Program-made: the position numbers and the translations under genes
Shown here: one piece after another, positions 1-42,186 of the stretch
Numbering within the stretch: position 1 is the stretch's first letter
How the letters are laid out: each line of letters starts with the position of its first letter
Notes under the pieces: generated by a model
Databases searched by the model: none
What the model was told of the DNA's origin: nothing
The model's input: only the letters and a program-made list of their open reading frames with translations
Source of the DNA: an uncultured Candidatus Saccharibacteria bacterium
GTDB taxonomy: Bacteria; Patescibacteriota; Minisyncoccia; Phycocordibacterales; UBA9973
DNA length: 42,186 bases
Assembly: GCA_964408305.1 (NCBI GenBank)
Contig: CAYOYW010000005.1
Coordinates: forward strand, 1 to 42,186
Direction of reading: 5' to 3'

Positions 1-55
1 ACTAGTAAAACATATAAAAGCATTTTATTTATTTGTATCATAACATGAAAGTACT
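1..55. repeat. Terminal direct repeat, identical to 42132..42186. This is the signature of a circular or circularly permuted assembly.
   Basis: actagtaaaacatataaaagcattttatttatttgtatcataacatgaaagtact occurs at both window ends. Confidence 0.95.
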
Positions 56-1025
56 GTCACTATTTGACTGAATAAGTTGTTGAATGATTGCACTAGAACG
101 TGCATGAATCAATGTAGAGAAATATTATGCTGCAGAAATAAAAAAAGATGCTATTCTTATTTCTCAAGACAATTACCCAGATATAATAAGGCTTGGTGAT
201 GTGAGAGATATTGACATTATTGAGGGGGGGGGGATAGATATAATTATATGATGAAGTCCTTGTCAATCGTTTTCCAATGCTTGAAAAAAAGAGTGATTTG
301 ATTGAAAAAGTTGATTATTTTACGAGTTTTTGAGAATACTTAGGGCTAATAAGCCTAGATTTTTCTTATTGGAAAATGTGAAGATGAAAAAGGAATGGCA
401 GGATATGATAACAAATATGTTGCTAGAAATATACCCAGATACAAAACTATATAATATAAATAGCTCTCTAGTATCTGCACAACTTAGAAACAGATTCTAC
501 TGGACCAATATACCATGAATTACTATGCCGGATGATAAGTGAATTGTCTTACAAGATATATTAGAAAGTTGATATACGGAAAGAAAAAAATATAGAGAAT
601 TATTAGAAAGTGATAGTAGACCACTAATTACAAAAGATAAAATGTTGTGGAGGTATATGGCTACATGATTTACAACTCTAGTATGGGATAGTGAAAAAAC
701 ATATTTGAGAGTAAAAGAAGCTACTAAAAAATGATATGTAGATATATGAGTAGATGAATGAGTAGATCTATCATATCCTACAAGTAAAACAAGAAGAGGA
801 AGAAGTATGAAAAGCAAAATACACACAATTACAAAAACAAAAAATGAATACTATCTTTTTGATGGTGAAGATATTAGATATCTTACTCAACAAGAACTAG
901 AAAAATGTCAAACATTGCCTGTATGATATACAAAATGTTTGCCTAGAAATAAGGCAGCATGATGTATAGGAGATTGACGAACGGTAGATGTTATCGCCCA
1001 CATATTTAGCTTTATTAAAAAATAA
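45..1025 (+). CDS. DNA (cytosine-5)-methyltransferase, 326 aa
   Basis: Code-25 translation gives MKVLSLFDGISCGMIALERAGI (motif I), IIIGGSPCQSFSNAGK (motif IV, catalytic Cys), PRFFLLENV (motif VI) and a C-terminal IGDGRTVDVIAHIF. Several of the motif glycines are TGA codons. TAA stop at 1023. Confidence 0.95.
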
Positions 1026-13313: not shown

Positions 13314-14009
13314 ATGGATAAAAAGGTAGTCATACTTGACACAGAAACAAACTGATTCGTACATAATGAGATTATACAATTAGCGTATGTTATGGCACAT
13401 TGATATTGATATAATTCTCTCCGAGAAAGAAGTATATACTTTTCGGCAGAAAACCCCATTGATATAGAAGCCATGGCAGTACATCATATTACAGAGGATA
13501 AAATCTTTACAATGCCTAGGTTTTCATTAGACTCACTAATCCAAGCTATATGAGAAGATTCTATCATTGTAGCACACAACGCTCAATTCGATATAGGCGT
13601 TCTCCGTAAATATGGAGAAGTAAAAAATCCACACATCTGTACTATGAAACTTGCAGTATCTCTACAGAGATGGCCAAAAGTATCATTGCAATATCTAAGA
13701 TATGCTATATGATTATCTCAGGAATGAAAAGCACACGATGCTCTATGAGATGCAGTAATATGCCATAAGTTATTTGAGCATCTAAGAGACACAATCATTG
13801 CAGAGAAAGGTATGTCACTGGATGAGTTCTATGACTACGCCATAGGATTGAGTATGAAAGATATGTTCAACTTCGGTAAGCATAAATGAAAGTTTATGGA
13901 GGAAGTAAAAAAGGAGGATCCATGATATTTCAGATGGCTTATCGATGCAGAGAATAGAAAAGAAAGTCCAGACCAGACACAAATATGAGTATGGCAAAAG
14001 TATCTTTAA
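13314..14009 (+). CDS. DEDDh 3'-5' exonuclease (DnaQ/epsilon-like), 231 aa
   Basis: VVILDTETNG (Exo I), IIVAHNAQFDIGVL (Exo II), HDALGDAVI (Exo III) and a C-terminal FGKHKGKFMEEVKKEDPGYFRWL. Confidence 0.88.
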
Positions 14010-14018
14010 CATTACGAA

Positions 14019-14276
14019 ATGCCTATGATGTATAAATTAGATTTACCCAAGTTCAACAGACTAGTGAAGATGTATAGGGCAAAAAAATGAGAATGACATC
14101 ACATCCAACCTATTAGAGATTTTATGAAAGATGTATGAATCAACTGAATGCGTAGCTTGTATAATATCATGGAGAAATGAATTATACAAGAAAGAACCAA
14201 GGACAAGTTAGAAAACTTTTTCAAGGAAGCATTGAAAAGACCTCATTTTAGATTGCCTCTAAAAAAGACCAAGTAA
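14019..14276 (+). CDS. Hypothetical protein, 85 aa
   Basis: ATG at 14019 to TAA at 14274. Confidence 0.45.
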
Positions 14277-14297
14277 TCTTTACTATTCACCACTAAC

Positions 14298-14567
14298 ATG
14301 AGCATCACAGATAGACAAGCCATGTACTTCAAGACTATCCAAGCTCTAGTGGATGATGCTGCAGCACACTGAGAAGTCCTCATGATCTGAATATACATGA
14401 GAGATCCTATAGACACCTCTCCTATGAATCCGATGGGGAGGTTGTCATATAGTATGATGGCCACAAACCATACGGACTATGATAGACTCATGCTACCAGC
14501 AACAGTGAAGCTAGAAATGGACACAATGAGAGTTACAGATCATTTTGATACAAGAAAAAAATTATAG
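14298..14567 (+). CDS. Hypothetical protein, 89 aa
   Basis: ATG at 14298 to TAG at 14565. Confidence 0.45.
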
Positions 14568-14593
14568 TTTTTAATTGTTCCCCAATATAATCC

Positions 14594-14917
14594 ATGAAAA
14601 TCAACTTCAAAACCCCTATCATGAAAGTAGACAATACTGTATTCTCTGAAACAAAGGACGGAGAAACGATACCGTATATGCTCAACGAAACACTTGCAAA
14701 TGATGTATTAGCTGATGCACCTAATGCAACAGATAACGCCATCAAGTTTACTGAGTGGGCTGAAATGCTACACAAAACATGAGAGCTAAATATAGATTCA
14801 ACTGATGCTAAAATCCTGGAACAACTTATCAAAGATTCTGGACTCAGAACATTCATCAAATGACAAGCTCTAAAGTTGATAGATGCAGCAAGATTATGAG
14901 CATCTATTTCAGCATAA
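14594..14917 (+). CDS. Hypothetical protein, 107 aa
   Basis: Extends the track ORF 14594..14782 through three TGA codons to TAA at 14915. Confidence 0.55.
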
Positions 14918-14923
14918 AAAAAG

Positions 14924-14989
14924 CCCTACCGTTAATACGATAGGGTAGCCCTGATTCGCAGGGTATACGTGTTGCACATAAAATGCAAC
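14924..14989. other. Three tandem hairpins at the convergence point of rightward and leftward transcription
   Basis: ccctaccg/cgataggg (one mismatch), ccctg/caggg, and gttgca-cataaaa-tgcaac. Confidence 0.5.
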
Positions 14990-15022
14990 CGCTATATATG
15001 AATAAAAATACATAATGCAAGA

Positions 15023-15682
15023 CTATCGCCTGAAGCTAAAATCTCAGGTGATTTTTTTGTTATGGATCATTCACATACAATTCAATACATTTACTTCCCA
15101 ACTACTTGTAGATGTAGCATAGAATGGAGCCGTACCTCAAGAGTATGGAGATAGATCTCATATAGTTTGCTTTCACTTTAGATATGATCAATTCAACACC
15201 CATCATATAGCATTGATACCTTGTTCTATATTCTTGAATCAAACCTTGTCACCACGATCATTATTACCTACATTCCCCCAGTTAAAAGGAGTCTTGAGAT
15301 GTTTACCTATTGACGTATCGGCGTATGTTATACATAGTAAAACTTCTGGATATACTTGGTGAATACGTGCAGTATGAATAAATGTACTCCATACAGCAGC
15401 TCCGCTTTGTCAGTAATCATTCAATAATTCTATAGCTCTTGCATCCCTACCTTTTCATTGCAAATCAGTGTATTTTTGAGATTTACCATTTTCATTCAGT
15501 AGCCATCGATCAGTAGGTTTTGTTGTTATTATTTCATCAGAAGGTAATCATATTTTGTCATTGTGCATCCAATCAGCCAGAACTGATCTACCAAATAGCA
15601 AAGTCACTACAATTCACACTATGAGAACTAGCTTTTGAGACGTTTTATTTATTGTTACTGGAACATATATTGTTTGTTTCAT
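15023..15682 (-). CDS. Membrane-anchored or secreted protein, possibly lysozyme-like, 219 aa
   Basis: All 220 minus-strand codons were checked, with no TAA or TAG. N-terminal TM LVLIVGIVVTLLF, then CITYADTSIGKHLKTPFNWGNVGNNDRGDKVGFKNIEQGINAIGWVL, which resembles glucosaminidase/transglycosylase-type motifs. The function is tentative. Confidence 0.65.
15027..15058 (+). terminator. Rho-independent terminator ending the early rightward arm
   Basis: cgcctga-agctaaaatc-tcaggtg followed by a T7 run. It overlaps the 3' end of the convergent minus-strand gene. Confidence 0.7.
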
Positions 15683-16044
15683 TAGTCTAATAGTTTAGGA
15701 GATAAAATGAGTGCTGATTCCATAGAGTCAAAATCCATCAATAAGATTTGATGACGTATTCTTTTCCCAATAGGATTGATAACTGATAGAGCTACTTTGT
15801 TTCCTTCAGCTCTTACTGGTCAAAGAACTACACATTGTTTACAAGTAATATCTACTACTTGCATAATTTCCTTCTTGTGATCTTGGAGTGTTGTTTCACT
15901 GATGGTAGTACATGAGTGAAATCGTGCGATAAGTGCTAATAACATGTTTGTATAAATAACGAAATAAATATCGTGTGATATTAGTATAGTCAGAAAAATA
16001 ATCTTGTCAAAAAATTGAATACTTTTTTCAAAAACCCCTTGCAA
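15682..16044 (-). CDS. Hypothetical protein (120 aa from TTG at 16044; 87 aa if the ATG at 15945 is used)
   Basis: The track ORF 15820..16044 extends through one TGA to a TAA that shares one nucleotide with the downstream ATG (TAATG coupling). No family recognised. Confidence 0.5.
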
Positions 16045-16066
16045 ACCATATAGGGAATTGTATGTT
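16039..16066 (+). promoter_or_regulatory. Promoter TTGCAA-N16-TATGTT (copy 3), start of the late rightward arm
   Basis: ccccTTGCAAaccatatagggaattgTATGTT, placed back to back with the leftward cassette. Confidence 0.5.
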
Positions 16067-16096
16067 AGTAGTAATTTACTTTTTACTAAACGCCCT

Positions 16097-16501
16097 ATGA
16101 CTGATACAACAAACGCAGAATTGGCTCAACAAAGCCAATCTGAAACTACTGCACAAAAAGACACTAATGTTTCAGAACAAGCATTTAGTTCTCCTTCAGA
16201 AGAAGTTGCAACAACAGAAACTCAAAACACATCTGATGTGCAACAATCAGAAGGAACAGATCCATCTACATTGCCTCAAGAAAACAAACTCAATGGAGTA
16301 GAGTTCGGAGGACAAAGTACACCACAAACTCCAGTGAATGCAGAAACAGGAGTGCCAGTTACAGTAGATAACGGTCAAGAGAAGGAAGAGGAAGTTGCAA
16401 CAGCACCATCTGAACATCCAACGTATAAGAATGCTGAGACAGGACAACCAGTTCCATCTGATACTCCAGTAGCAACAACAACTGAAGAAAACCCAGCGTA
16501 G
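16097..16501 (+). CDS. Acidic, T/Q/E/P-rich low-complexity protein, 134 aa
   Basis: MTDTTNAELAQQSQSETTAQKD...TTTEENPA. It has no in-frame TGA and ends in TAG. The ATG at 16097 was chosen over the TTG at 16058. Confidence 0.6.
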   Translation: MTDTTNAELAQQSQSETTAQKDTNVSEQAFSSPSEEVATTETQNTSDVQQSEGTDPSTLPQENKLNGVEFGGQSTPQTPVNAETGVPVTVDNGQEKEEEVATAPSEHPTYKNAETGQPVPSDTPVATTTEENPA

Positions 16502-28693: not shown

Positions 28694-31408
28694 ATGGCAA
28701 GAACCCCAGAACAAATCGCAGCGACAAAGGCAGTAGTAGAAAAAAGAAGAGCAGAAAATACTGCAAAAAATGCTTTGCCTACTACACAAGTTGTTCAATG
28801 ATGACCTCAGCAAACTGCAGAGGCAGTTCAAGCAGCACAGGCAAAACAAGCTAATGCACCAGTAGGATGAACTCCTCCAGCGGTGCCAACTCCATGAGCT
28901 ACGCCGGCAAATCCTACTCCACCAGCAAATCCAACACAAGCACCTAATCAGTCAGTTGCTTTGCCAAAAATAGGTGCTACTGCTAACATAAATCCTACAA
29001 CAGGAGCTATGACAAATGCAGATGGTACTCCATACGTTCCTGGTCCTAACAGTACAATGAACCCAAAGACTGAAGACCAATCAATGCTATTCGGAGATGC
29101 TGCAGTTGCCAAAAATCTTGAAGATCCAAAGTTCATACAAAATAGAGATGCAAGTATTATCAAAGAGCTAAGTGCCAAATGACAATACGGCGATATGAAT
29201 GATGCAGAACTCAAGAAAAACATTGAAGCTGACCTAGTGAGAAGAGGTGCTGATATCAAAGATCCTAGAATATCACAAACAATAGATAGAGTTGCTTCAG
29301 GGATAAGATGAGTACAACCTATGAGAACTGCGGATGATTACTACAATATCCTAGCACAAGGTTGAACTCTACCAAACCAAGACATATCAAACCCAAATGC
29401 ACAATATGCTATGTCTACTTTCAAAAAAGTGCAAAACATAGCTACAAAAACTCCTCAACAAATATCGTCTGATCTTGCATCAGGTAATTTGCTTATTTGA
29501 GGTAATCTATACAACAAACTAGTTGCTGCATGATACTGACCTAAATTGGAAGAGGCAAAGAAATACAAAAACCTTCAGTTTAGACAAGACGTAAACAACT
29601 ATCTTACATCAGGTACAGATGTTGATCCAGACAAACCGCTTGGAGAACAAAAAACATCATTTCCTGACCATCCTAATTTTGAGGAATCGCTTTCTCAAGA
29701 GTTTTCTACAAAATCTCCAAATTATGTAGATATGTTTAGAGAAAGTATAGCTAATAACCAAGAACTCAATGATGCTAAAACAGCTGCAAGATCTACATTG
29801 GATGCCATCAATGAAAAAAGAAGACTAATCAGTAATTTGTCAGCAGATATAAAAGCTCAAATAATCGCATTAGGAGGTACAATAAGTGACTGATACCTTG
29901 CTCTTTTGGCACAAAATAAATCAAAACCTATCGTGAGAGAATTGGAAGGATTACAAGATCAATATAATTCAGAAATGGCACTTGTTAGTGACCTAAAAGA
30001 TACAGCAAAGACTGAGTTCGAACTTAAGATGAAACAATACGGAGAAGATAGAGAAGTTGCATTGGAAAATATGAAATTCGAAAGAGATTACAAAAAACAA
30101 CTCAATATCATGGGGATCCAGGATCAATACGCTCAACAAGCAGAGGAAAGAGCGTTCGGAAGAGATCTGAAAAAGATGGATATCCAAGACCAATACAGTC
30201 AAGCTGCAGAAGAAAGACAATTCGGAAGACAAATCAAGCTCGGAGATATCCAATACGACAGAGATCTCAACAAGATACAAATTGGATTCGAACAAGATAT
30301 CAAGAAACTCCAAATGTCTCAAAACTTCGATCTTAACAAGATGGATAAACAAGCATATATCAACCAACAGCAAGCGAAGTATGAATATGATCTTAAAAAC
30401 CAAGCTACTATGAATAGTAACCTTGGTATGGTAGATGTTAGCCAAATAGAACAAGCAAGAGAAAAGTATGGATACGCTCCATGATGGGATAATCCACAAA
30501 TTGCAAAACTATGTCTACCAGACGGTTCAAACGCTGGTCAATGTGCTAAATATGTGAATGATCTCTATGCTGCAGCATGAGCTGGAAGGCCATTCGGTTG
30601 AGCAGATCAAACAATCAAGGGGAAAATCGCAGTTACACAATCTGATAAACGAGGATCTACAAAGCCAGTTATCGGATGATCAGTTGTGTCTGATTTTGGA
30701 TTACAAGATCCTGATACAAAACAAAATTATGGTCACGTTGAGCAAATCATTGCTATCAAACCAGATGGTACATTGGTAGTATCAGGTTCTAACTTTACAA
30801 ACGACAAAAACAGTCCTAAATATAACAAAGCATATACAAGAGAAATCTTGCCATGAGATCCAACAGTGAAATGATATACAAAAGCTCCATGAGCTGAAAC
30901 ATGAATCCAACATGCTCAGTTGACTGATAAAAACTTCACTCAATTCAACCAAGCTACTCAAAACTTTAGAAACAATCCAGTTGTTCAAAGCTATGAAAAA
31001 GCTATTACATCAAGTAGAAATCTCCTTTCATCATTGAATGATGCAAGTGGACCTGGTGATGTAGCAGGTATATTTGACTTCATGAAAACATTGGATCCTA
31101 CGTCTACAGTTAGAGAAGGTGAGTTCGCTCTTGCAGCAAAAAGTGCATGATTGAAATGAGATATCCAAAACCTTTACAATAGAGTTGTAAATGGTCAAAG
31201 ACTTACAGCTGATCAAAGAAGAGAGTTCTGACAACTTGCAAAAACGTATATTAGAAACCAAGGTAAGTCATACGATAGAGTCTATGATGATATGGTAAGA
31301 GCTTATGAGGCAGGATGAATTGATAAATACTACTTGCCTACAAGTGCATCAAAAGAACTAGATGATATATGGGGAGATACAGACCTCAAAGATCCATACG
31401 AAGAATAA
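28694..31408 (+). CDS. Large virion-associated protein with a CHAP peptidoglycan-hydrolase domain, 904 aa
   Basis: Five track ORFs lie in one frame, verified line by line. CHAP signature LPDGSNAGQCAKYVNDLY (Cys at 30542), ...NYGHVEQIIAI (His at 30734), ...VSGSN. Tandem IQDQY-AEER-FGR repeats near 30115-30260. Confidence 0.85.
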
Positions 31409-31428
31409 TTTATCTATTTCAGGACAAG

Positions 31429-34400
31429 ATGTTCAACATATTCGATACTATTGATGAGCTAGCAGCTCAAAACAGAAAAAAGAAACAAATAGCTAGTGGA
31501 CAACAGTACGCTAGTTTTGTCAATAATGTCGAGCCAACTACTCCATCTCCGAAAAAGATGGATTTTTCTCTTATTCCATGATATAACACTCCATCAGTTC
31601 CCACATCGATCACAGGTGGGAAAAGTATCGCATATACAGACAATCCATGAACGGTTGCACAAATAGAGCAGAACACTGTGAACCAAGTAAAAAGTATACT
31701 ATTCTCAAACGCTGAGATACTTAAACTCAGAGAACTCAAAAAACAATGAGTTTCTAAACAAGCTGCATACGAGCAAATCGCAAAAGATAGAGCGACTGAG
31801 TCATCACAAAACCCACAAACTCAATGAGGTATAAAACGTGGACTTACTCCAGATCAAGTAGATCCATCAGAAGCTGCATATAATCCAGTATGATATGGAT
31901 TCGAAAAGCTAGACAACGCTGCACAAGGAATACCTACTATTGATGTAAGAGGTAATGTATCGCAAGAGATAAATGACAAGGTAGCAAAATTGCCACAATC
32001 AGAAATTGATAGAAAGACAAAAAAGTTCAATGATACACGATGGATACAAAAACTATATGGTAATGTAAACAACTATATCAGAGAGACGTCAAAATCATAT
32101 ATGGAATGATTGAGAGAAGATTTTGCTACTCCTCTCAACATTTTTGCTAATGCTCCAGCAAGTGCCATAAAAACGGCAACTGCAACTGCAAGATGAGTGA
32201 CAAATCCACTAGATACGATAAAAGGTATATATACGCTCTTTGCTACCCCAGAAGGTAAGCAAGCTCTTACGGATAGATATTGAAGTATGGACAATATATT
32301 GAAAACAATGGAAACTGATCCAGTATGATTGGCAAGTGATGTACTTACACTACTTGAGTGAGGTGCGAACCTTACAAAACTATGAGCAAAATGAACTTCA
32401 CTAGTTGCGAAAGCTGCAGGTGCAAGTGATATTGCTAAGAGTGCGGAAAGGGTAGCAACGACTGCATGAGATATTGCACACACTGCAGGCCAAGCAGCAG
32501 ATCTATGAGTAAGTACTATGGTACCAGCATGATTTGATGTTGCGAAAGGTGCATTCAAAGGTAATTCGGCATTTGACAAGGCAGCTAGATTTACGATTGA
32601 TGCGGCAAAAGCTCCTACGGCTCCATTAGAAACTGCAGGTAAAGTCGCAAAAGCTATTGTGCCAAAAGGATTTGATGTATTTAATCCAAAAGTAAAAGCA
32701 CAATGATCAAAACCTGATTTTGCTGACAGAGTAGCTGCAGCTCATTTTGGTGTTGATGCTGAAAGTGTTAATATAGCTAGACAAAACCCTGAGATATTCA
32801 AACAAATTGATGAAGGTAAAATAACAAAGAAGACAGTGATTGATGATTTAAGATCTCTTGTTAGCGATAAAAAATGACAAAAATCTGAACTATGAGCATT
32901 ATATGAAGATGTATACAAAGCTCCTGAAAAGTTCAACAGTGTAGAGATGGCGAAAGATATAGCTAGCAAACTACAAGAGGAATGAATTGAGATGACGGAT
33001 GGAAAAGTTACATGATATGATCCATCAAAGACGACACTCACTGATACAGAGTTTTCAGCACTCAAAAGCAAGTATAACAATACACTTTCAAACCTTACAT
33101 CAAAACCACGTGAATTATCGGTAGAGGAAGTACACAATATCAGAAAAGACATATACAACACATCATACAATGATGGTGTTAGATCTAAAAAAGCAAAAGG
33201 TGTGGATATCATATCTAACCTTATCAATGAAAAATATCTCCATACAGTTCCATGATTCAAAGAACTAGACACAGAGTTCGGAGATGTAGCTAGTATCGCT
33301 AGAGAAGTATCAAAGATAATTACAAACAAAGACGGAGAGTTCAAAGGTACATTGAAAGCACTCCTAGGAGAAAAACAAGCTCCTAGATTAGAACTACTTG
33401 AAAAATACGTTCCTGGTATCACTCAAACACTAGAAACAATAAAAGCACACGATGATTTCGTAAGAACAAGAGATACTCACAAAGTATGATTATATGGCAA
33501 AATAGTGAAATGAGCTACTAGCACATGAGTAGGCTTTGCTCTTGGTGGCCCAGTATGAGCATTCATAGGATGAGTAGGTTGAGCATTACTCGATCAATTT
33601 TTGTCAAATCCAGATTTATTGAAAAAATATATCAAAAATATAGACGGTGGTAAAACTCTTGCCAAATTGGAAGCTGGAAAAGAACTTAGTGCGGTTGAGC
33701 AGGCAAAAGTTAAAATTGCAGCAGCAAAGGTACAATGAGAAGCCGATAGAAAGGTAAAAATGGAAGCTCAAAGAGTTGAAGCTGAAGCCAAGGCAAAAAT
33801 GGAGGAAGAGAAAAAGATTATCCAAAGTAAGAAAACTGAAGCGTTTAATAAAATCAAGAATGATCCAGAATATGTGAAAAGAGCAGAAGCTGGCCACAGA
33901 GTAGATAAGCCACTTGTATGAGATATTACAAGAGAATGAAAAGTTACTGCAGTGAAAGAAACTGGTGGTCAATATAATCATTTCAGAGTACAAATTGACG
34001 GAAAATCTGAATGGATGAAACCTGAAAATGTAGGTGGTGTTTACGGTAAAAAAACAGTTGACACAAAACCTCCAGTAGAAGATTTTGACGAAACTATGAG
34101 AAAAACAGTTGAATCAGCTACTACAGAAAAAGATCCATTATCAACATTTGCTGAAGGATGAAAAAGAGAATACTATGTCAACTCATTGAGTGAATACGGC
34201 GTTGATGTAGGTAAAATAACAGATATGTGAGATAGACAAAAAATAGCTGACATGATCAATGCTAGAAGTACAGATAAGCAATACGAACTTTTCAAAGAAA
34301 TTATTGAAAAACACGGTGATGATGCCTCAAAAGAAATGTTCCAAAGTGCTAGAATTGCATGACAAACTATAAGTAATCAAGAAGCTACAAAAACTGTACT

Positions 34401-35826
34401 GAAATACTTTTCTCCAGAGGAAGTATCAGTACAATTTGTCAAATCTCTTACTACTCCAGAGTGACAAGAGGCACGAGGATCATACCACAATAAAATCATA
34501 AAGTTCGTAGACAACCCTGATAAAAATACCCCAACACACGAAGTGTTGCATGCTTACTTTGATATGTTCACAGATCCGTCAAGAAAGGTGGATATTTTAG
34601 AAACAGTAAAAAGACAAGCTCAAGTAGATAATCCAGGATCTAAAATGACAAATGTGGATGCAGAAGAATGGCTAGCAGATAATTTTGTGCAATATGTAAG
34701 AGGTGCTGAAACATTCACCGGTAAAATCAAAAAATACTTCGAGAATATGTGGAATACAATGAAAAATATATTCGGACAAGGAGACAAGATAAGAAACCTA
34801 TATAACGATATCATTGATAAAAAAAGAAGTAAATGATCGAATAAATGAATAGCTATGTTTCAAGAAAAAGACAATCATCTCTACGAAGAAGCAAGGAAGT
34901 ATAAGAGTGCAGAGGAGTTTATAAGCAATTCCGATGTGGTTTACCATTGAAGCAGGGCTAGTATAGGAAATGCACAACTCACTCCATGATTAAAAGGTTC
35001 TAGGGGTGGTGGTATATATACTACAAAAGATGTTCAACAGGCAAGTAATTACTGAGATATAAATACTAGATATATTACTTCTAATGCACGTAAGTTTGAT
35101 TTTGATTCTATGAGGAAGAAAGATATTATTGATACTATACAATCATGATTGGAAAAGAACAATATTGCAGTAAATAGAGATTGAGATTTGCTCGTTACGA
35201 AATACTGAAGACTAGATTTCGAGTATTGAAAAGATAAATATGCTCTAAACTCTTTATTGATGGATTTGAAAAATGACTGAATCAGTCAAGAAAGGTTCTT
35301 TACAGATATGTGATACGATTTAGTAAATCTATGAGATTGAGAAAAACAGATAGTCGTATATAATCCTAGTGTCTTAAAAACTAAAGACCAACTCCGCCAA
35401 ATCCGAGAGGAAGCAAATAAAAATACTAGAGAATATGCTTGAACGCACCAAATAGATGAGAATACTTCTTCTTCGATTGTGGATATATCTAATAATACTA
35501 TCGATTCATTTGTTAGCGACTTCAAATCGAAATATTGATACCCAGCTCTAAAGAATAAAGAAATAGCTAAGATGAAAGAGTTAATGTCTAATAAATCTGA
35601 AGAAGTAACTATATATAGAGCATCTCCCAAGAATGAGCTTAATCCTGGTGACTGGGTTACAATAGATAAGGCATATGCACAAGACATAAAAAAACAGAAT
35701 GGATGAAGAGTATATAAATATAAGGTCAAAGCAAAAGACTTATACTACCCAACAACCAAGGAATGATTTGACGAATTACCGTCACTAGCAAAACGAAGTT
35801 CATTTAGCTATAACCCTAAAAAATAG
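31429..35826 (+). CDS. Giant polyvalent virion protein, 1465 aa, with a zincin metallopeptidase motif and a PARP-like ADP-ribosyltransferase motif
   Basis: All codons 31429-35826 were checked. TAG at 35824. HEVLH at 34537-34551 with AEEWLADNF 37 residues later (ImmA/IrrE-like pattern). VVYHGSRASIGNAQLTPGLKGSRGGGIYTTKDVQQASNYG from 34936 and GEKQIVVYNPSVL at 35341 form an H-Y-E pattern. Glycine-zipper GVGFALGGPVGAFIGGVGGALL. Confidence 0.85.
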
Positions 35827-36285: not shown

Positions 36286-37599
36286 ATGGCTCCTCACTGA
36301 TATACCTCTGAAGGTTCAACAGTAATCACAAAACAAGTACAGACAGCAAACTCTGATCCAGGAAGTCTAAGTATGATTTTTTCTGATACATCAAACCTAG
36401 CAAAAATATACGCTCTAGTAGCAGGTAGTAGAATAACACTAGATAGGAACGTAAACGGTAGAATGACTATAGCAGTAGATTTGACTGGATTATCTAGTTC
36501 TGATATTACTAATTTTCAAGCAGCAGTTTCAGCTAATACAGACGTTGCAGCTAATACTGTAGCAAGACATACACACGCTAACAAAACAACTCTTGATAAG
36601 TTCTCAGAGCCATGAGGAGTATTGAACTTTAATGGTGTTCCAGTGAACTTCGAAAATCCTTTCCTAGGACAATGACAAGATGGAGCAGTTACAATATCAG
36701 TAGATACAACTCTTACTAGAGATATGTACTATGACACGCTCGTAGTAAATGCCTGAGTAAGATTGAATGCTGCATGATATCGTATTTTTGCAAAAACTAG
36801 TGTAACAGTAAATGGTATAATTAGTAACAACTGATTCAACGCATCTTGATCAACAGGATGATTGTGAGCTAGTGCTGGTACATTGAAATGATGACTTGAC
36901 GGTAAAAATGGTAGTATCTGAGCTACTGGTGCTATACCAGCGGTTGCAGGTACTGCATGATTAACAGGTACTGCATCAGCAAATAGTCTATGAGTTGCAG
37001 GTACTGCATGAGGTGCTGGATGAGATACTGGAAATTATGGTCCAAATAGTATTGCATCAGGTGGTGCATCTTGAGCTGGATGAGCAAGAACAGTTGCCAT
37101 AAATCTACCAAAATCTATCTATCAATTCATGGCATTCGTAGATGCCAATTATAGTGTTAACAACGTAACAGCATACTACTCTTCTTCAGCATGAGGTGGA
37201 TGAGGTGGATGAGGTGCAGCATATTGATCTCCAGCTACTGGTTGAACTGGTGGATGAGGTGGATGATGATGAGGTATCGTATTCATCTATACTCCTAGCT
37301 TGACTATATGAGCTACATGAGTGATCGAAGCGAATTGATGAGCTGGTTGAAACGGAACGGCTTGAACTGGCGGTACTGGATGACAGACTGCAGGTTGAGG
37401 TGGATGAGGTTCTGGATGAGCAGGATGAGTTGTTATCTTGATATATAAAGCTATTAGTAATGCTTGAGTTGTTAGAGCGTTATGATGAGCTGCATGAGCA
37501 GGATGATCTCCATTGCAATTCGGTGGTACATGAGCTACTGCATGAGCAGGTTGAGTATCATGAAATACATGAAATACTTACACTTACACATATATCTAA
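36286..37599 (+). CDS. Glycine-rich tail fibre/spike-like protein, 437 aa
   Basis: Every line was checked. There are about 48 in-frame TGA codons by hand count. Sequence includes SSSAGGGGGGGGAAYGSPATGGTGGGGGGGGGIVFIYTP and VIEANGGAGGNGTAGTGGTGG. Confidence 0.8.
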
Positions 37600-40478: not shown

Positions 40479-40982
40479 ATGACTCACCAAGAATACATCA
40501 AAAAGTATTTGTGAATGAGGGTAGATTTTGACAACGCTTATGCTTATCAATGTGTTGATCTTGCACGCCATTACTGCGGTATGGTATGGCAATATCTTAC
40601 ATGATTATTTTGAGGTAGTGCATACGCAGGATGGGTTAATAGACAAAAGACTTTCAAGTGAAAAGCATATATCACATGATTCCCAAAGGATTCATCTACC
40701 GTAAAAGTGTGAAGTGTTGTTATTTTCAAGCCAGGTGCAACAATTATGACAAAGTATCCATGAAACAACCAAGCATGGAGAAAAATCAGATTTTGAAAAG
40801 ACTGACACGTTTGAGTTATTGATTATATTGACAACGATTGAGTCATGAGAATCATTGAGCAAAACTGAATCAATGGTAGAATTATCAATGGGAAAAGAGT
40901 GTACGATTGATTATGAGAAAACGCTATCCGCCTAATGTGATACCAAGGGAAAGATGCAGTAGCATGATTTATTTTGCAATAA
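40479..40982 (+). CDS. CHAP-domain endolysin, 167 aa
   Basis: FDNAYAYQCVDLARHY (Cys at 40551), ...DGHVGVIDYID, ...IIEQN. Confidence 0.85.
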
Positions 40983-41808: not shown

Positions 41809-42174
41809 ATGGATAGACATTGAATTGAACTAGAACTTATTGAAAGCCTCATTGAGGCAATACAATTAGTTAATTGAGAGATGTTCTCAAAAGAAGAATT
41901 GATAAGTCGATTGCGTAAGCAACAAGATATAATTTCACAAGAGGAAGATGAGGAAGAAATGTTTGACGAGCAATGAGACATAGATTTCCTAAATGCAATC
42001 GCTGAGGCAACAAAGCAAAAATTCGCATTTTGAGATCGACAATTCTCAGGATGAAACTTTTTTGCAAAAATGTGAGTGTGAAACAAGGCATCAATATCAT
42101 TGTGACAAACTCAAGCTACAGCAAACAATAAACTAGTAAAACATATAAAAGCATTTTATTTATTTGTATCATAA
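41809..42174 (+). CDS. Hypothetical acidic protein, 121 aa, spanning the circularisation junction
   Basis: ATG at 41809. The TAA at 42172 corresponds to positions 41-43, 1 nt before the methyltransferase ATG at 45. Confidence 0.55.
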
Positions 42175-42186
42175 CATGAAAGTACT
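42132..42186. repeat. Terminal direct repeat (copy of 1..55)
   Basis: Exact 55-nt identity with the window start. Confidence 0.95.

What the first reader, a model, noticed from the sequence alone, without database searches (positions are those of the whole stretch)
31429..35826. 1465-aa polyvalent virion protein combining a zincin protease motif with a PARP-like ADP-ribosyltransferase motif
Seen: one uninterrupted code-25 ORF, with every codon checked. It contains the following elements:
- HEVLH (34537-34551), followed 37 residues later by AEEWLADNF. This is the HExxH...ExxAxxF arrangement of ImmA/IrrE-type zincins.
- VVYHGSRASIGNAQLTPGLKGSRGGGIYTTKDVQQASNYG (from 34936) and GEKQIVVYNPSVL (35341). 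These reproduce the H-G-S-R / G-x-G-I-Y / E-x-x-I-V-V-Y layout of H-Y-E (PARP/diphtheria-toxin-class) ARTs.
- A glycine-zipper segment near 33520-33600.
- A terminal TIYRASPKNELNPGDWVTIDKAYA domain.
Established: large polyvalent proteins of phages and conjugative elements bundle peptidase, ART and other effector domains that are delivered with the DNA to neutralise host defences.
Inference: this is an ejected multi-effector protein. To my knowledge, none has been described for phages of code-25 or CPR hosts.
Basis: partly seen in the sequence, partly recalled or inferred. Interest (0 to 1): 0.8.

Follow-up and report, generated by a model that had tools for sequence, protein, structure and literature searches.

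The report
Polyvalent virion effector protein, code-25 phage
This 1465-residue gene in a complete phage genome that reads TGA as glycine encodes a phage "polyvalent" protein: a membrane-inserting chassis carrying a zinc protease, an ADP-ribosyltransferase and a third conserved module. It is a clear new example of a kind of protein already described in other phages, not a new kind.

Summary
Window 31429-35826 (+) is one ORF of 1465 codons with 51 in-frame TGA and a TAG stop, and TGA = Gly (code 25) is proven.

The HExxH segment (residues 971-1134) is a real zincin-like metallopeptidase domain:
- It has 391 relatives, almost all inside 1,000-5,500-aa proteins.
- H1037, E1038, H1041 and E1080 are invariant.
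- The AlphaFold model is confident and matches giant crAss-like "structural" proteins and "large polyvalent protein" proteins.

The next segment (1141-1335) belongs to the ART-PolyVal (H-Y-[EDQ]) family.

The terminal domain (1336-1465) is PHROG 2579, an autonomous phage module, possibly a degenerate ART-like fold.

Relatives keep the same N-terminal chassis and zincin but swap the ART for a PBECR5 RNase. The gene always follows a large LysM/CHAP protein downstream of a podovirus-type adaptor.

Best reading: an ejected multi-effector protein. Packaging into virions and enzyme activity are inferred, not shown. Verdict: a new member of a known kind (Iyer et al. 2017), the first noted in a code-25 phage. 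Interest is moderate.

The parts
31429..35826 (+). Complete ORF, 1465 aa in code 25 (51 TGA = Gly), TAG stop; AGGA at 31421-31424
31429..33510 (+). N-terminal region (residues 1-694). No family assignment. Part of the conserved 'chassis'.
   Evidence: No Pfam, PHROG, NCBIfam or PDB hit. Weak BLAST similarity to the N-terminal parts of the 600-900-aa relatives P0002 and P0021.
32692..33864 (+). Core of the chassis (residues 422-812), shared with other zincin-bearing proteins
   Evidence: phmmer: P0050 E=1e-97, P0049 1e-22, P0067 5e-19, P0122 6e-13, P0054 3e-8
33511..33603 (+). Glycine-zipper hydrophobic segment (residues 695-725), probably a single membrane-inserting helix
   Evidence: Only strongly hydrophobic window in the protein. 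5 of its glycines are TGA. Weak hits to small glycine-zipper membrane families.
33604..34338 (+). Charged, probably coiled-coil stretch plus a small unassigned region (residues 726-970)
   Evidence: Read from the sequence; no significant family hit
34339..34830 (+). Zincin-like metallopeptidase domain (residues 971-1134)
   Evidence: 391 relatives. Invariant H, E, H, E. AF2 pLDDT 89.6, pTM 0.85, topology helix / 3 strands / HExxH helix / Glu helix. BFVD matches down to E=1.6e-7, TM 0.71. PDB profile hit to Zmp1/PPEP-1, E=0.005.
34537..34551 (+). HEVLH: H1037, E1038, H1041 (predicted zinc ligands and general base)
34666..34668 (+). E1080, invariant, predicted third zinc ligand. D1084 at i+4 gives an ExxxD arrangement.
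34849..35433 (+). ART-PolyVal-type ADP-ribosyltransferase domain (residues 1141-1335), including the N-terminal KYKSAEEF helix and the C-terminal KTKDQL...EEANK linker
   Evidence: Pfam PF18760 E=5e-4 over profile positions 8-131 of 140, plus DUF3990 and PARP. Relatives P0013 (42% identical) and P0020 (passes the gathering score). 89 profile hits, many carrying PF18760.
34945..34947 (+). H1173 (strand 1 His of the ART triad)
   Evidence: H in 33 of 41. Aligned to the HG[ST] histidine of tankyrase-2, diphtheria toxin and PARP12.
35017..35019 (+). Y1197 (strand 2 Tyr of the ART triad)
   Evidence: Y or F in 29 of 41. Aligned to the GxGIYF tyrosine of tankyrase-2 and the G.Y tyrosine of diphtheria toxin.
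35341..35349 (+). E1305-K1306-Q1307. Q1307 occupies the strand-5 catalytic column; E1305 is at position -2.
   Evidence: Column 1307: E 17, Q 5, S 4, T 4, V 4, N 3 of 41. Column 1305: E 11 of 41.
35434..35823 (+). C-terminal conserved module (residues 1336-1465), equal to PHROG 2579; possibly a compact degenerate ART-like fold
   Evidence: phrog_2579 E=2e-11 for the whole protein and in 19 of 19 members. Best-conserved part of the family. AF2 pLDDT 81. No significant PDB match; weak hits include ART-fold proteins. Stand-alone in mycobacteriophage Eureka gp128 and embedded in a P22-like phage protein.
28694..31408 (+). Upstream partner gene: 904-aa protein with a CHAP peptidoglycan hydrolase domain. 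This adjacency is conserved in related phages.
   Evidence: Pfam CHAP 27.0 bits, cut-off 26. A LysM/CHAP protein of 959-998 aa lies directly upstream of the homologue in L001 and L002.

Best explanation
The gene encodes a phage polyvalent protein in the sense of Iyer et al. 2017: one polypeptide made late with the virion proteins, probably packaged and ejected with the DNA.

Proposed parts and roles:
- N-terminal ~800 residues: a conserved chassis with one glycine-zipper membrane helix. Like the internal or ejection proteins of podoviruses, it is proposed to leave the capsid with the genome and insert into the host envelope. It would work with the upstream CHAP-bearing protein, which opens the cell wall.
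- C-terminal ~500 residues: cargo. This comprises a zincin-like metallopeptidase with an intact HExxH...E centre, an ART-PolyVal ADP-ribosyltransferase with an H-Y-Q (ExQ) active site, and a third autonomous module (PHROG 2579).

Once in the cell, the ART is proposed to mono-ADP-ribosylate a host target using NAD+. The peptidase is proposed either to cut the polyprotein into its modules or to cleave host proteins.

Shown: the ORF, the genetic code, homology of each module, conservation of catalytic residues, module swapping among relatives, and conserved gene order.

Inferred: packaging, ejection, membrane insertion, both enzymatic activities and their targets.
For: Context:
- The window is a phage genome with terminase small and large subunits and a major head protein upstream, fibre-like Gly-rich proteins and a CHAP endolysin downstream, and a 55-nt terminal repeat.
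- In related contigs the order SU10-type adaptor, two large proteins, LysM/CHAP ~960-1000 aa, then the homologue is conserved (L004 has a related layout in which the LysM protein lies further upstream).

Zincin:
- 391 relatives, 139 of them at E<=1e-10, median length 1850 aa.
- H1037, E1038, H1041, E1080 and F1086 invariant.
- AF2 pLDDT 89.6 with the zincin core topology that Iyer et al. describe (PMC5512222).
- 14 BFVD matches at E<=1e-3, including crAss-like 'Structural protein' (E=1.6e-7, TM 0.71). Weaker matches (E 1e-3 to 1e-2, prob >=0.99) include 'Large polyvalent protein associated domain-containing protein', a RelA/SpoT protein, and the Cellulophaga phage phi14:2 'Structural protein'.
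- PDB profile hit to Zmp1/PPEP-1 with the invariant H, E, H, E aligned to its HExxH and Glu.

ART:
- PF18760 E=5e-4 over nearly the whole profile.
- P0020 passes the Pfam cut-off (35.9 vs 31.2 bits) and is linked to the query at E=1.4e-11.
- H and Y aligned with diphtheria toxin, tankyrase-2 and PARP12.

Module swapping:
- P0050, P0067 and P0054 share the chassis and zincin but carry PBECR5; P0122 carries ART-PolyVal.
- The terminal domain occurs at internal positions in nine giant proteins.
- In GenBank it lies inside a 679-aa protein of a P22-like phage, between the tail adaptor and the stabilization protein and next to YHG-type ART-like segments.
- P0024 (ART-like module plus terminal domain) sits right after the terminase and a portal-sized gene.
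Against: - No direct evidence that the protein is in virions or is ejected.
- The direct Pfam score for ART-PolyVal is below the gathering score (21.3 vs 31.2 bits).
- The catalytic strand-5 column holds Gln, not Glu or Asp. From general knowledge of E-to-Q mutants of diphtheria toxin and PARP1, this would be expected to lower activity or limit it to mono-ADP-ribosylation. The domain could therefore be a weak enzyme, an NAD+ binder or inactive.
- The zincin domain matches no Pfam model, including MPTase-PolyVal, and has no significant PDB structural neighbour (best E=0.17).
- The N-terminal 700 residues have no detectable relationship to any characterised ejection protein.
- The terminal domain also occurs as a small stand-alone protein in the non-structural arm of mycobacteriophages, so these modules are not always virion cargo.
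Confidence: 0.72

Rival explanations
1. A mainly structural ejection or tail-channel protein (functionally like a tape measure or internal core protein). Its HExxH domain would serve virion maturation or cell-envelope penetration, and its ART-like and terminal domains would be catalytically dead scaffolds or binding modules rather than host-directed effectors.
For: - Position between a CHAP-bearing large protein and the fibres, plus a single glycine-zipper helix.
- Gln at the catalytic ART column.
- The terminal domain of this clade lacks the otherwise universal Glu of the E[FY]GY motif (S1458 instead).
- The N4 virion RNAP's zincin region is needed for encapsidation rather than known host attack (PMC5512222).
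Against: - H1173 and Y1197 and the whole NAD-pocket half of the ART are conserved.
- The cargo position is swapped for a PBECR5 RNase in relatives. That pattern fits interchangeable effectors, not structural parts.
- The zincin catalytic residues are invariant over 391 relatives.
Confidence: 0.17
2. An intracellular late protein that is not packaged. It would act inside the already infected cell, for example against superinfecting phages or host defences.
For: - The terminal module occurs as a free 117-aa protein among non-structural genes of mycobacteriophage Eureka.
- No packaging signal or MuF/portal-binding domain was detected.
Against: - Conserved placement inside the structural/ejection gene block in several independent contigs.
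- Structural relatives are named 'Structural protein' in crAss-like and Cellulophaga phages.
- The membrane-helix chassis is hard to explain for a soluble cytoplasmic enzyme.
Confidence: 0.08
3. An artefact: several genes merged into one by reading through genuine TGA stops, or an assembly chimera.
For: Under the standard code the frame is broken 51 times.
Against: - TGA sits at conserved glycines in the methyltransferase, in the ART 'YHG' motif and in the glycine zipper.
- All genes of the window carry in-frame TGA.
- No ORF on another frame or strand of comparable length is free of TGA.
- Relatives from standard-translated records have the same multi-domain layout.
Confidence: 0.02

Closest known systems
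Phage-type polyvalent proteins (Iyer, Burroughs, Anand, de Souza, Aravind 2017, J Bacteriol; PMC5512222)
   Same: - One very large polypeptide encoded among late/virion genes.
- A zincin-like MPTase hub domain combined with an ART of the H-Y clade.
- Relatives swap in PBECR RNase modules.
   Different: - The zincin domain is not recognised by the Pfam MPTase-PolyVal model or any other Pfam model.
- The effector array is fused to an ~800-aa chassis with a glycine-zipper membrane helix.
- The genome uses code 25.
ART-PolyVal (Pfam PF18760), prototyped by the ART in the N4-like virion RNAP protein of Roseovarius Plymouth podovirus 1; Tox-ART-HYD2 clade
   Same: - Same fold family by profile.
- His in strand 1 and Tyr in strand 2 are conserved.
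   Different: - The family is described with Asp in strand 5 (PMC5512222). Here the aligned column is Gln1307 with Glu1305 at position -2.
- The direct score is below Pfam's gathering score.
Giant virion-associated proteins of crAss-like phages and Cellulophaga phage phi14:2
   Same: The zincin model superposes on fragments of these proteins (E down to 1.6e-7, TM 0.63-0.72). Several are named 'Structural protein'.
   Different: - Sequence identity is only 13-21%.
- tblastn with the whole protein found no match in 50,697 GenBank phage records.
- Those proteins are 2-5 times larger and carry other modules.
679-aa protein UOF78806.1 of P22-like phage MW202573 ('DNA repair protein')
   Same: It contains the same terminal module (39.8% identity to a family member), followed by YHG-type ART-like segments, and is encoded between the tail adaptor and the stabilization/injection genes.
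   Different: No zincin domain or glycine-zipper chassis was seen. The module order is reversed (terminal-type module first, ART after).
Clostridioides difficile Zmp1 / Pro-Pro endopeptidase 1 (MEROPS M34, anthrax lethal factor family)
   Same: HExxH helix and the Glu-bearing helix align residue for residue: H1037/E1038/H1041 to its HExxH, and E1080 to the second Glu of its PEEFFAE segment, which by my count from the printed alignment is zinc ligand E185.
   Different: E=0.005 only. The Foldseek match is weak (E=2.6, TM 0.40). Nothing suggests shared substrate specificity.
Phage T4 Alt and MuF-fused ARTs (head-packaged ARTs)
   Same: Concept: an ART delivered from the capsid with the DNA (PMC9503650). 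P0024, a relative with an ART-like module and the terminal domain, occupies the MuF-like position after the portal-sized gene.
   Different: From general knowledge, Alt belongs to the R-S-E clade; here the main ART is H-Y-Q. No MuF domain was detected in the window protein.

Membership tests
Polyvalent proteins (Iyer et al. 2017) | Two or more biochemically unrelated domains in one polypeptide | tested here: met
   Zincin peptidase, ART and the PHROG 2579 module on one 1465-aa chain
Polyvalent proteins (Iyer et al. 2017) | Encoded by a phage or conjugative element, for phages among late/virion genes | tested here: met
   Terminase, head, CHAP, fibre and lysin genes around it. Same order in L001 and L002.
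Polyvalent proteins (Iyer et al. 2017) | Domains belong to the shared, recombining domain network (MPTase hub, ART, PBECR and others) | tested here: met
   Relatives combine the same zincin with PBECR5, ART-PolyVal or the terminal module, in varying order. BFVD hits are named 'Large polyvalent protein associated domain-containing protein'.
Polyvalent proteins (Iyer et al. 2017) | Delivered into the host with the DNA (virion-packaged) | not testable with these tools
   Needs virion proteomics. Only gene order and the names given to structural relatives speak for it.
Zincin-like metallopeptidase superfamily | HExxH on a helix plus a downstream Glu on a later helix | tested here: met
   H1037, E1038, H1041 and E1080 are invariant in 32 sequences. 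Both lie on predicted helices, 64-77 and 105-124 of the model.
Zincin-like metallopeptidase superfamily | Core of an N-terminal helix and a three-stranded sheet before the HExxH helix | tested here: met
   AF2 elements H13-21, E30-34, E47-50, E53-57, H64-77; pLDDT 89.6
Pfam MPTase-PolyVal (PF18818) | Match to the family model | tested here: not met
   No hit at E<=10 for the segment. No hit in nine giant relatives scanned at E<=1e-3.
ImmA/IrrE (Peptidase_M78, PF06114) | Match to the family model | tested here: not met
   No hit at E<=10. Only one weak BFVD neighbour is named IrrE-like (E=0.058).
MEROPS M34 (lethal factor / PPEP-1) | Significant sequence or structure similarity with aligned zinc ligands | tested here: inconclusive
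   Profile E=0.005 with the motif residues aligned, but Foldseek E=2.6
ART-PolyVal (PF18760) | Match to the family model at the curated score | tested here: inconclusive
   Direct: 21.3 bits against a cut-off of 31.2, E=5e-4, profile positions 8-131 of 140. Indirect: P0020 scores 35.9 bits and matches the query at E=1.4e-11. A profile of the segment retrieves many PF18760 proteins.
ART-PolyVal / H-Y-[EDQ] ART clade | His in strand 1 | tested here: met
   H1173. H in 33 of 41. Aligned to the HG[ST] histidine of diphtheria toxin, tankyrase-2 and PARP12.
ART-PolyVal / H-Y-[EDQ] ART clade | Tyr in strand 2 | tested here: met
   Y1197 in GGGIYTT, aligned to the GAGIYF tyrosine of tankyrase-2 and the KGFYS tyrosine of diphtheria toxin
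ART-PolyVal / H-Y-[EDQ] ART clade | Asp, Glu or Gln at the start of strand 5 | tested here: inconclusive
   The family column has E in 17 of 41; this protein has Q1307 with E1305 two residues upstream. Q is allowed by the clade definition (PMC9503650) but differs from the Asp described for the polyvalent family (PMC5512222).
PARP catalytic domain (PF00644) | Match to the family model | tested here: not met
   16.0 bits against a cut-off of 26.7, covering only the N-terminal half. The relationship is at superfamily level only.
PHROG 2579 ('ParB C-terminal domain') | Match to the family profile | tested here: met
   E=2.3e-11 for the whole protein. 19 of 19 family members match, best E=1.4e-26.

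The most novel reading that the evidence does not exclude
The terminal 130-residue module (PHROG 2579; signature IYR...GDW[VI][ST]L[SD]...E[FY]GY) may be an unrecognised, minimal R-[ST]-E-type ADP-ribosyltransferase-like domain. It is currently mislabelled 'ParB C-terminal domain'. It is widespread in phages, both free (mycobacteriophage Eureka gp128) and fused to ejection proteins. On this reading the window protein would carry two ART-type modules: an H-Y-Q one, and a degenerate R-T-S one that has lost the Glu. In addition, the fusion of a membrane-inserting ejection chassis to swappable effector cargo (ART or PBECR5) would define a distinct delivery architecture in phages of code-25 CPR bacteria.
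Probability: 0.25. Interest if true: 0.55.

Novelty: new member of a known kind. Interest (0 to 1): 0.38.

Why it matters
- It extends the polyvalent-effector strategy (peptidase plus NAD+-dependent modifier delivered with the genome) to phages of Absconditabacteria/Gracilibacteria-type hosts. Almost nothing is known about infection mechanisms in these hosts.
- It gives concrete, separable domains with named catalytic residues to test: H1037/E1038/H1041/E1080 and H1173/Y1197/E1305/Q1307.
- It shows that a large zincin family (391 or more members in giant phage proteins) is missing from Pfam.
- It shows that public protein sets hold many of these proteins mistranslated with Trp at TGA, which hides them from homology searches.

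Tried and rejected
- Whole-protein searches of Pfam, PHROGs and PDB sequences gave nothing for the zincin or the ART. Only domain-wise scans exposed ART-PolyVal.
- The word-indexed homology search with the full 1465 aa returned only the protein itself.
I used the code-4 database copy of the zincin stretch, which differs at 2 residues.
- Pfam on nine giant zincin-bearing relatives found no peptidase model.
- Foldseek against the PDB gave no significant neighbour for either model.
- NCBIfam gave only noise.
- tblastn of the whole protein against 50,697 GenBank phages found no match.
- A joint ART plus terminal-domain alignment for structure prediction failed, because MAFFT kept stacking the two domains on each other. 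The ART domain was therefore not modelled.
- hhalign of the terminal domain against the ART gave 92.9%, but only over the last strand and the shared linker, so I do not count it as proof of homology of the cores.
- PDB profile searches with 5- and 18-sequence ART profiles reached only the N-terminal half, so they could not settle the strand-5 register.
- I considered the KYKSAEEF helix as a universal inter-module linker or cleavage site. I rejected that as a general rule because it occurs in only 16 of 150 zincin giants.
- I rejected TGA = Trp (code 4).

Full report
**The sequence.** Window 31429-35826 on the + strand is one reading frame of 1465 sense codons ending in TAG. Under the standard code it is broken 51 times, every time by TGA. 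An AGGA lies 4 nt before the ATG. The upstream gene stops at 31406-31408, so the start is credible. The public protein collection holds exactly this ORF, but translated with Trp at TGA.

**The genetic code.** TGA is glycine, not tryptophan.
- In the cytosine-5 methyltransferase at 45-1025, the glycines of motif I (F-x-G-x-x-x-G) and motif IV (GGSPCQ) are TGA codons.
- GGN codons alone give 3.8% Gly and GGN plus TGA gives 7.7%. TGG plus TGA would give an implausible 4.6% Trp.
- Inside the target ORF, the conserved Gly of the ART 'YHG' motif is a TGA.

**Context.** The window's first and last 55 nt are identical, so it is probably a complete circularly assembled genome of about 42.1 kb. Nearly all genes are on the + strand.
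- Upstream lie small and large terminase, a portal-sized gene and the major head protein.
- Directly upstream is a 904-aa protein with a CHAP domain.
- Downstream are glycine-rich fibre-like proteins, one with 48 TGA in 437 codons, and a CHAP endolysin.
- In two related contigs the homologue follows a 959-998-aa LysM/CHAP protein, itself downstream of an SU10-type adaptor and two 480-670-aa proteins. A third contig is similar, though its LysM protein lies further upstream.

This gene order places the protein in the tail/ejection block of a podovirus-like phage.

**The HExxH domain.** Pfam, PHROGs, NCBIfam and PDB sequence searches with the single sequence found nothing. An exhaustive HMMER search with residues 935-1134 found 391 proteins at E<=1e-3 and 139 at E<=1e-10. 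Nearly all are 1,000-5,500 aa long, with a median of 1850.

In an alignment of 32 diverse members, H1037, E1038, H1041, E1080 and F1086 are invariant, and D1045, E1079 and A1083 are nearly so. The consensus is TP.G..A.G.Y....I....NP...T..HEAVHAY.D.F...AEE.LAD.F..Y.

The AlphaFold model built from that alignment is confident (pLDDT 89.6, pTM 0.85). Its order of elements is helix, three strands, the HExxH helix, a helix, then the Glu-bearing helix. That is the zincin core as described in PMC5512222.

A profile search of PDB sequences gives *C. difficile* Zmp1/Pro-Pro endopeptidase as best hit (E=0.005). The family's invariant H, E, H and E align with its HExxH and with the second Glu of its PEEFFAE segment. 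By my count from the printed alignment that Glu is E185, which I recall as the zinc ligand.

Foldseek against the PDB finds no significant neighbour (best E=0.17). Its top list is mostly zincins: SPRTN, MATCAP, LTA4 hydrolase, PPEP-1, and an *M. tuberculosis* regulator that I recall carries an ImmA/IrrE-like module.

Against predicted viral structures there are 14 matches at E<=1e-3. The best is a crAss-like 'Structural protein' (E=1.6e-7, TM 0.71), followed by many crAss-like phage giants. Weaker matches (E 1e-3 to 1e-2, prob >=0.99) include 'Large polyvalent protein associated domain-containing' proteins, a RelA/SpoT-containing phage protein and the Cellulophaga phage phi14:2 'Structural protein'.

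So this is a genuine zincin-like metallopeptidase domain with an intact catalytic centre. It is of the kind that forms the hub of phage polyvalent proteins. It is not covered by the Pfam MPTase-PolyVal or Peptidase_M78 models.

**The ART domain.** Scanned alone, residues 1120-1330 hit three families of the same superfamily, all below their cut-offs:
- ART-PolyVal: E=5e-4, 21.3 bits, profile positions 8-131 of 140
- DUF3990
- PARP

Relatives close the gap:
- P0013 is 42% identical over the domain and P0020 passes the Pfam cut-off at 35.9 bits. Both match the query strongly (E=1e-41 and 1.4e-11).
- A profile of five such segments retrieves 89 proteins, many carrying PF18760.
- Profiles of 5 and 18 members have tankyrase-2, diphtheria toxin and PARP12 as their best ART hits in the PDB. 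The E-values (0.1-1.7) are not significant.
- All three alignments place H1173 on the HG[ST] histidine and Y1197 on the G.Y tyrosine. From memory these are the triad residues (diphtheria toxin H21/Y54).

For the third residue, these alignments stop before strand 5. In the 41-sequence family alignment, the column directly before the hydrophobic strand (x-I-V-V-Y) is E in 17 members, Q in 5, and S/T/V/N in others. The window protein and its nearest relative have Q there (Q1307), with a Glu two residues upstream (E1305). From established knowledge, PARP1 E988 directly precedes Y-I-V-Y, the same register as Q1307-I-V-V-Y.

The clade is formally named H-Y-[EDQ] (PMC9503650), and the polyvalent family was described as H-Y-D (PMC5512222). 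Gln is therefore a permitted but less active-looking variant. Whether E1305 substitutes for it cannot be decided without coordinates.

A small subclade of the same family has YRGG, G[VI]S[VA] and ExE, a classical R-S-ExE site. It occurs as a second tandem copy in P0020 and P0029.

**The terminal domain.** Residues 1336-1465 are the best-conserved part of the protein. They are 52-66% identical to the C-termini of a dozen 500-900-aa proteins. All 19 aligned members match PHROG 2579, labelled 'ParB C-terminal domain'.

A more distant member of the family finds 181 GenBank phages:
- In mycobacteriophage Eureka the domain is a free 117-aa protein, gp128, among small non-structural genes.
- In a P22-like phage it lies in a 679-aa protein between the tail adaptor and the stabilization protein. 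It is followed by two YHG-type ART-like segments, and a 'DNA injection protein' gene lies close by.

The universal signature is IYR...GDW[VI][ST]L[SD]...E[FY]GY. The window's clade has an 11-residue insertion and S1458 in place of that Glu.

Three weak lines of evidence suggest a compact ART-like fold:
- MAFFT repeatedly stacked this domain on the ART domain: IYRAS over VYHGS, GDWVTIDK over GGIYTTKD, FSYNP over VVYNP.
- The AlphaFold model (pLDDT 81) is a small alpha/beta unit.
- Its non-significant PDB neighbours include C3larvin, ExoS, Tse6, IcmQ and a CNFy fragment, which I recall as ART or ART-like folds.

The evidence is suggestive only. hhalign aligned just the last strand and the shared linker.

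**The chassis and module swapping.** The N-terminal 930 residues match no library. Residues 422-812, which include the only strongly hydrophobic segment (glycine zipper, 695-725), are shared with other zincin-bearing proteins: P0050 at E=1e-97, then P0049, P0067, P0122 and P0054.

Those relatives carry PBECR5, a polyvalent-protein RNase, next to the zincin (P0050, P0067, P0054), or ART-PolyVal (P0122). Nine giant proteins have the terminal module at internal positions. P0024, which has an ART-like module plus the terminal module, sits right after the terminase and a portal-sized gene, the position of MuF-type head proteins.

A conserved chassis and zincin with interchangeable enzymatic cargo is exactly the behaviour described for polyvalent proteins.

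**Mechanism.** Most likely (0.72) the protein is packaged and ejected with the DNA. The steps would be:
1. The CHAP protein opens the wall.
2. The chassis inserts through its glycine-zipper helix.
3. The zincin processes the polyprotein or cleaves host proteins.
4. The ART mono-ADP-ribosylates a host target.

Packaging, ejection and both activities are inferences from gene order, from the names and proteomic status of structural relatives, and from residue conservation.

The main rival (0.17) is a chiefly structural ejection protein whose ART-like modules are inactive. The Gln at the catalytic column and the lost Glu in the terminal domain favour this. The module swapping and the conserved NAD-pocket half argue against it. 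A non-packaged intracellular role (0.08) and an artefact of read-through (0.02) are unlikely.

**Novelty.** Polyvalent proteins, their zincin hub, ART-PolyVal and PBECR5 are all published (PMC5512222). Code-25 phages of Absconditabacteria and Gracilibacteria are published too (PMC10746230), though that paper mentions neither polyvalent proteins nor ADP-ribosylation.

This is a new member of a known kind in an unexplored host group. Three modest points of interest remain:
- a large zincin family absent from Pfam
- the H-Y-Q/ExQ site
- a widespread terminal module that may be a minimal ART-like fold

A practical by-product: the database copy of this protein, 5 of 29 relatives and 25 of 150 zincin giants, are translated with Trp at TGA.

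Noticed in passing
window 1-55 and 42132-42186: The first and last 55 nt are identical. The contig is probably a complete, circularly assembled phage genome of about 42.13 kb.
   Followed up: partly
whole window: No tRNA gene was found, so there is no phage-borne suppressor tRNA. Reading TGA as Gly must depend on the host, which points to a code-25 host (Absconditabacteria or Gracilibacteria). One relative (P0004) comes from an Absconditabacterales assembly.
   Followed up: partly
P0001; P0009-P0011, P0018, P0026; 25 of P0031-P0180: Public protein sets hold this protein and many relatives translated with code 4 (Trp at TGA): W 4-9% and G 1.5-4.5%. This mistranslation lowers their detectability.
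   Followed up: partly
window 36286-37599 (+): A 437-codon gene with 48 TGA codons encodes a poly-glycine, fibre-like protein. It shows how strongly TGA is used for Gly.
   Followed up: no
P0020 695-852, P0029 139-300, P0195, P0199, P0218: A subclade of the ART-PolyVal-like family has an R-S-ExE-type site (YRGG / G[VI]S[VA] / ExE). In P0020 and P0029 it occurs as a second tandem copy behind another module of the same family.
   Followed up: partly
window 34897-34920 (residues 1157-1164); relatives: A highly conserved helix, EA[KR]KYKSAEEF, precedes ART-type and terminal-domain modules: 83 of 88 ART hits, but only 16 of 150 zincin giants. A conserved tail, KTKSQLTDIWNKANK, follows them. These may be a module boundary, docking or processing signal.
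   Followed up: partly
L006 2420-2773 (Mycobacterium phage Eureka gp128); L007 2398-4437 (MW202573): The terminal module (PHROG 2579, 'ParB C-terminal domain') is a free 117-aa protein in cluster-E-type mycobacteriophages. In a P22-like phage it is part of a 679-aa protein with two YHG-type ART-like segments, annotated 'DNA repair protein'. Both names look uninformative.
   Followed up: partly
P0041 residues 793-912: A 2163-aa zincin-bearing giant protein contains DNA polymerase III beta (sliding clamp) domains (PF02767 E=1.4e-15). This is an unusual cargo for a polyvalent protein.
   Followed up: no
window 28694-31408 and 40479-40982: There are two separate CHAP-domain proteins: a 904-aa one with long coiled-coil-like repeats directly upstream of the target (probably virion-associated), and a 167-aa one in the lysis region (probably the endolysin).
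   Followed up: partly
window 14000-16500; minus-strand ORF 15023-15694: GC skew dips here, and a 224-codon minus-strand ORF with 12 TGA lies in this region. It may be a divergently transcribed regulatory or early region between the replication and packaging modules.
   Followed up: no
window 45-1025 (+): A cytosine-5 DNA methyltransferase sits at the start of the contig. Its motif glycines served as the code-25 test, and it is a likely anti-restriction function.
   Followed up: no
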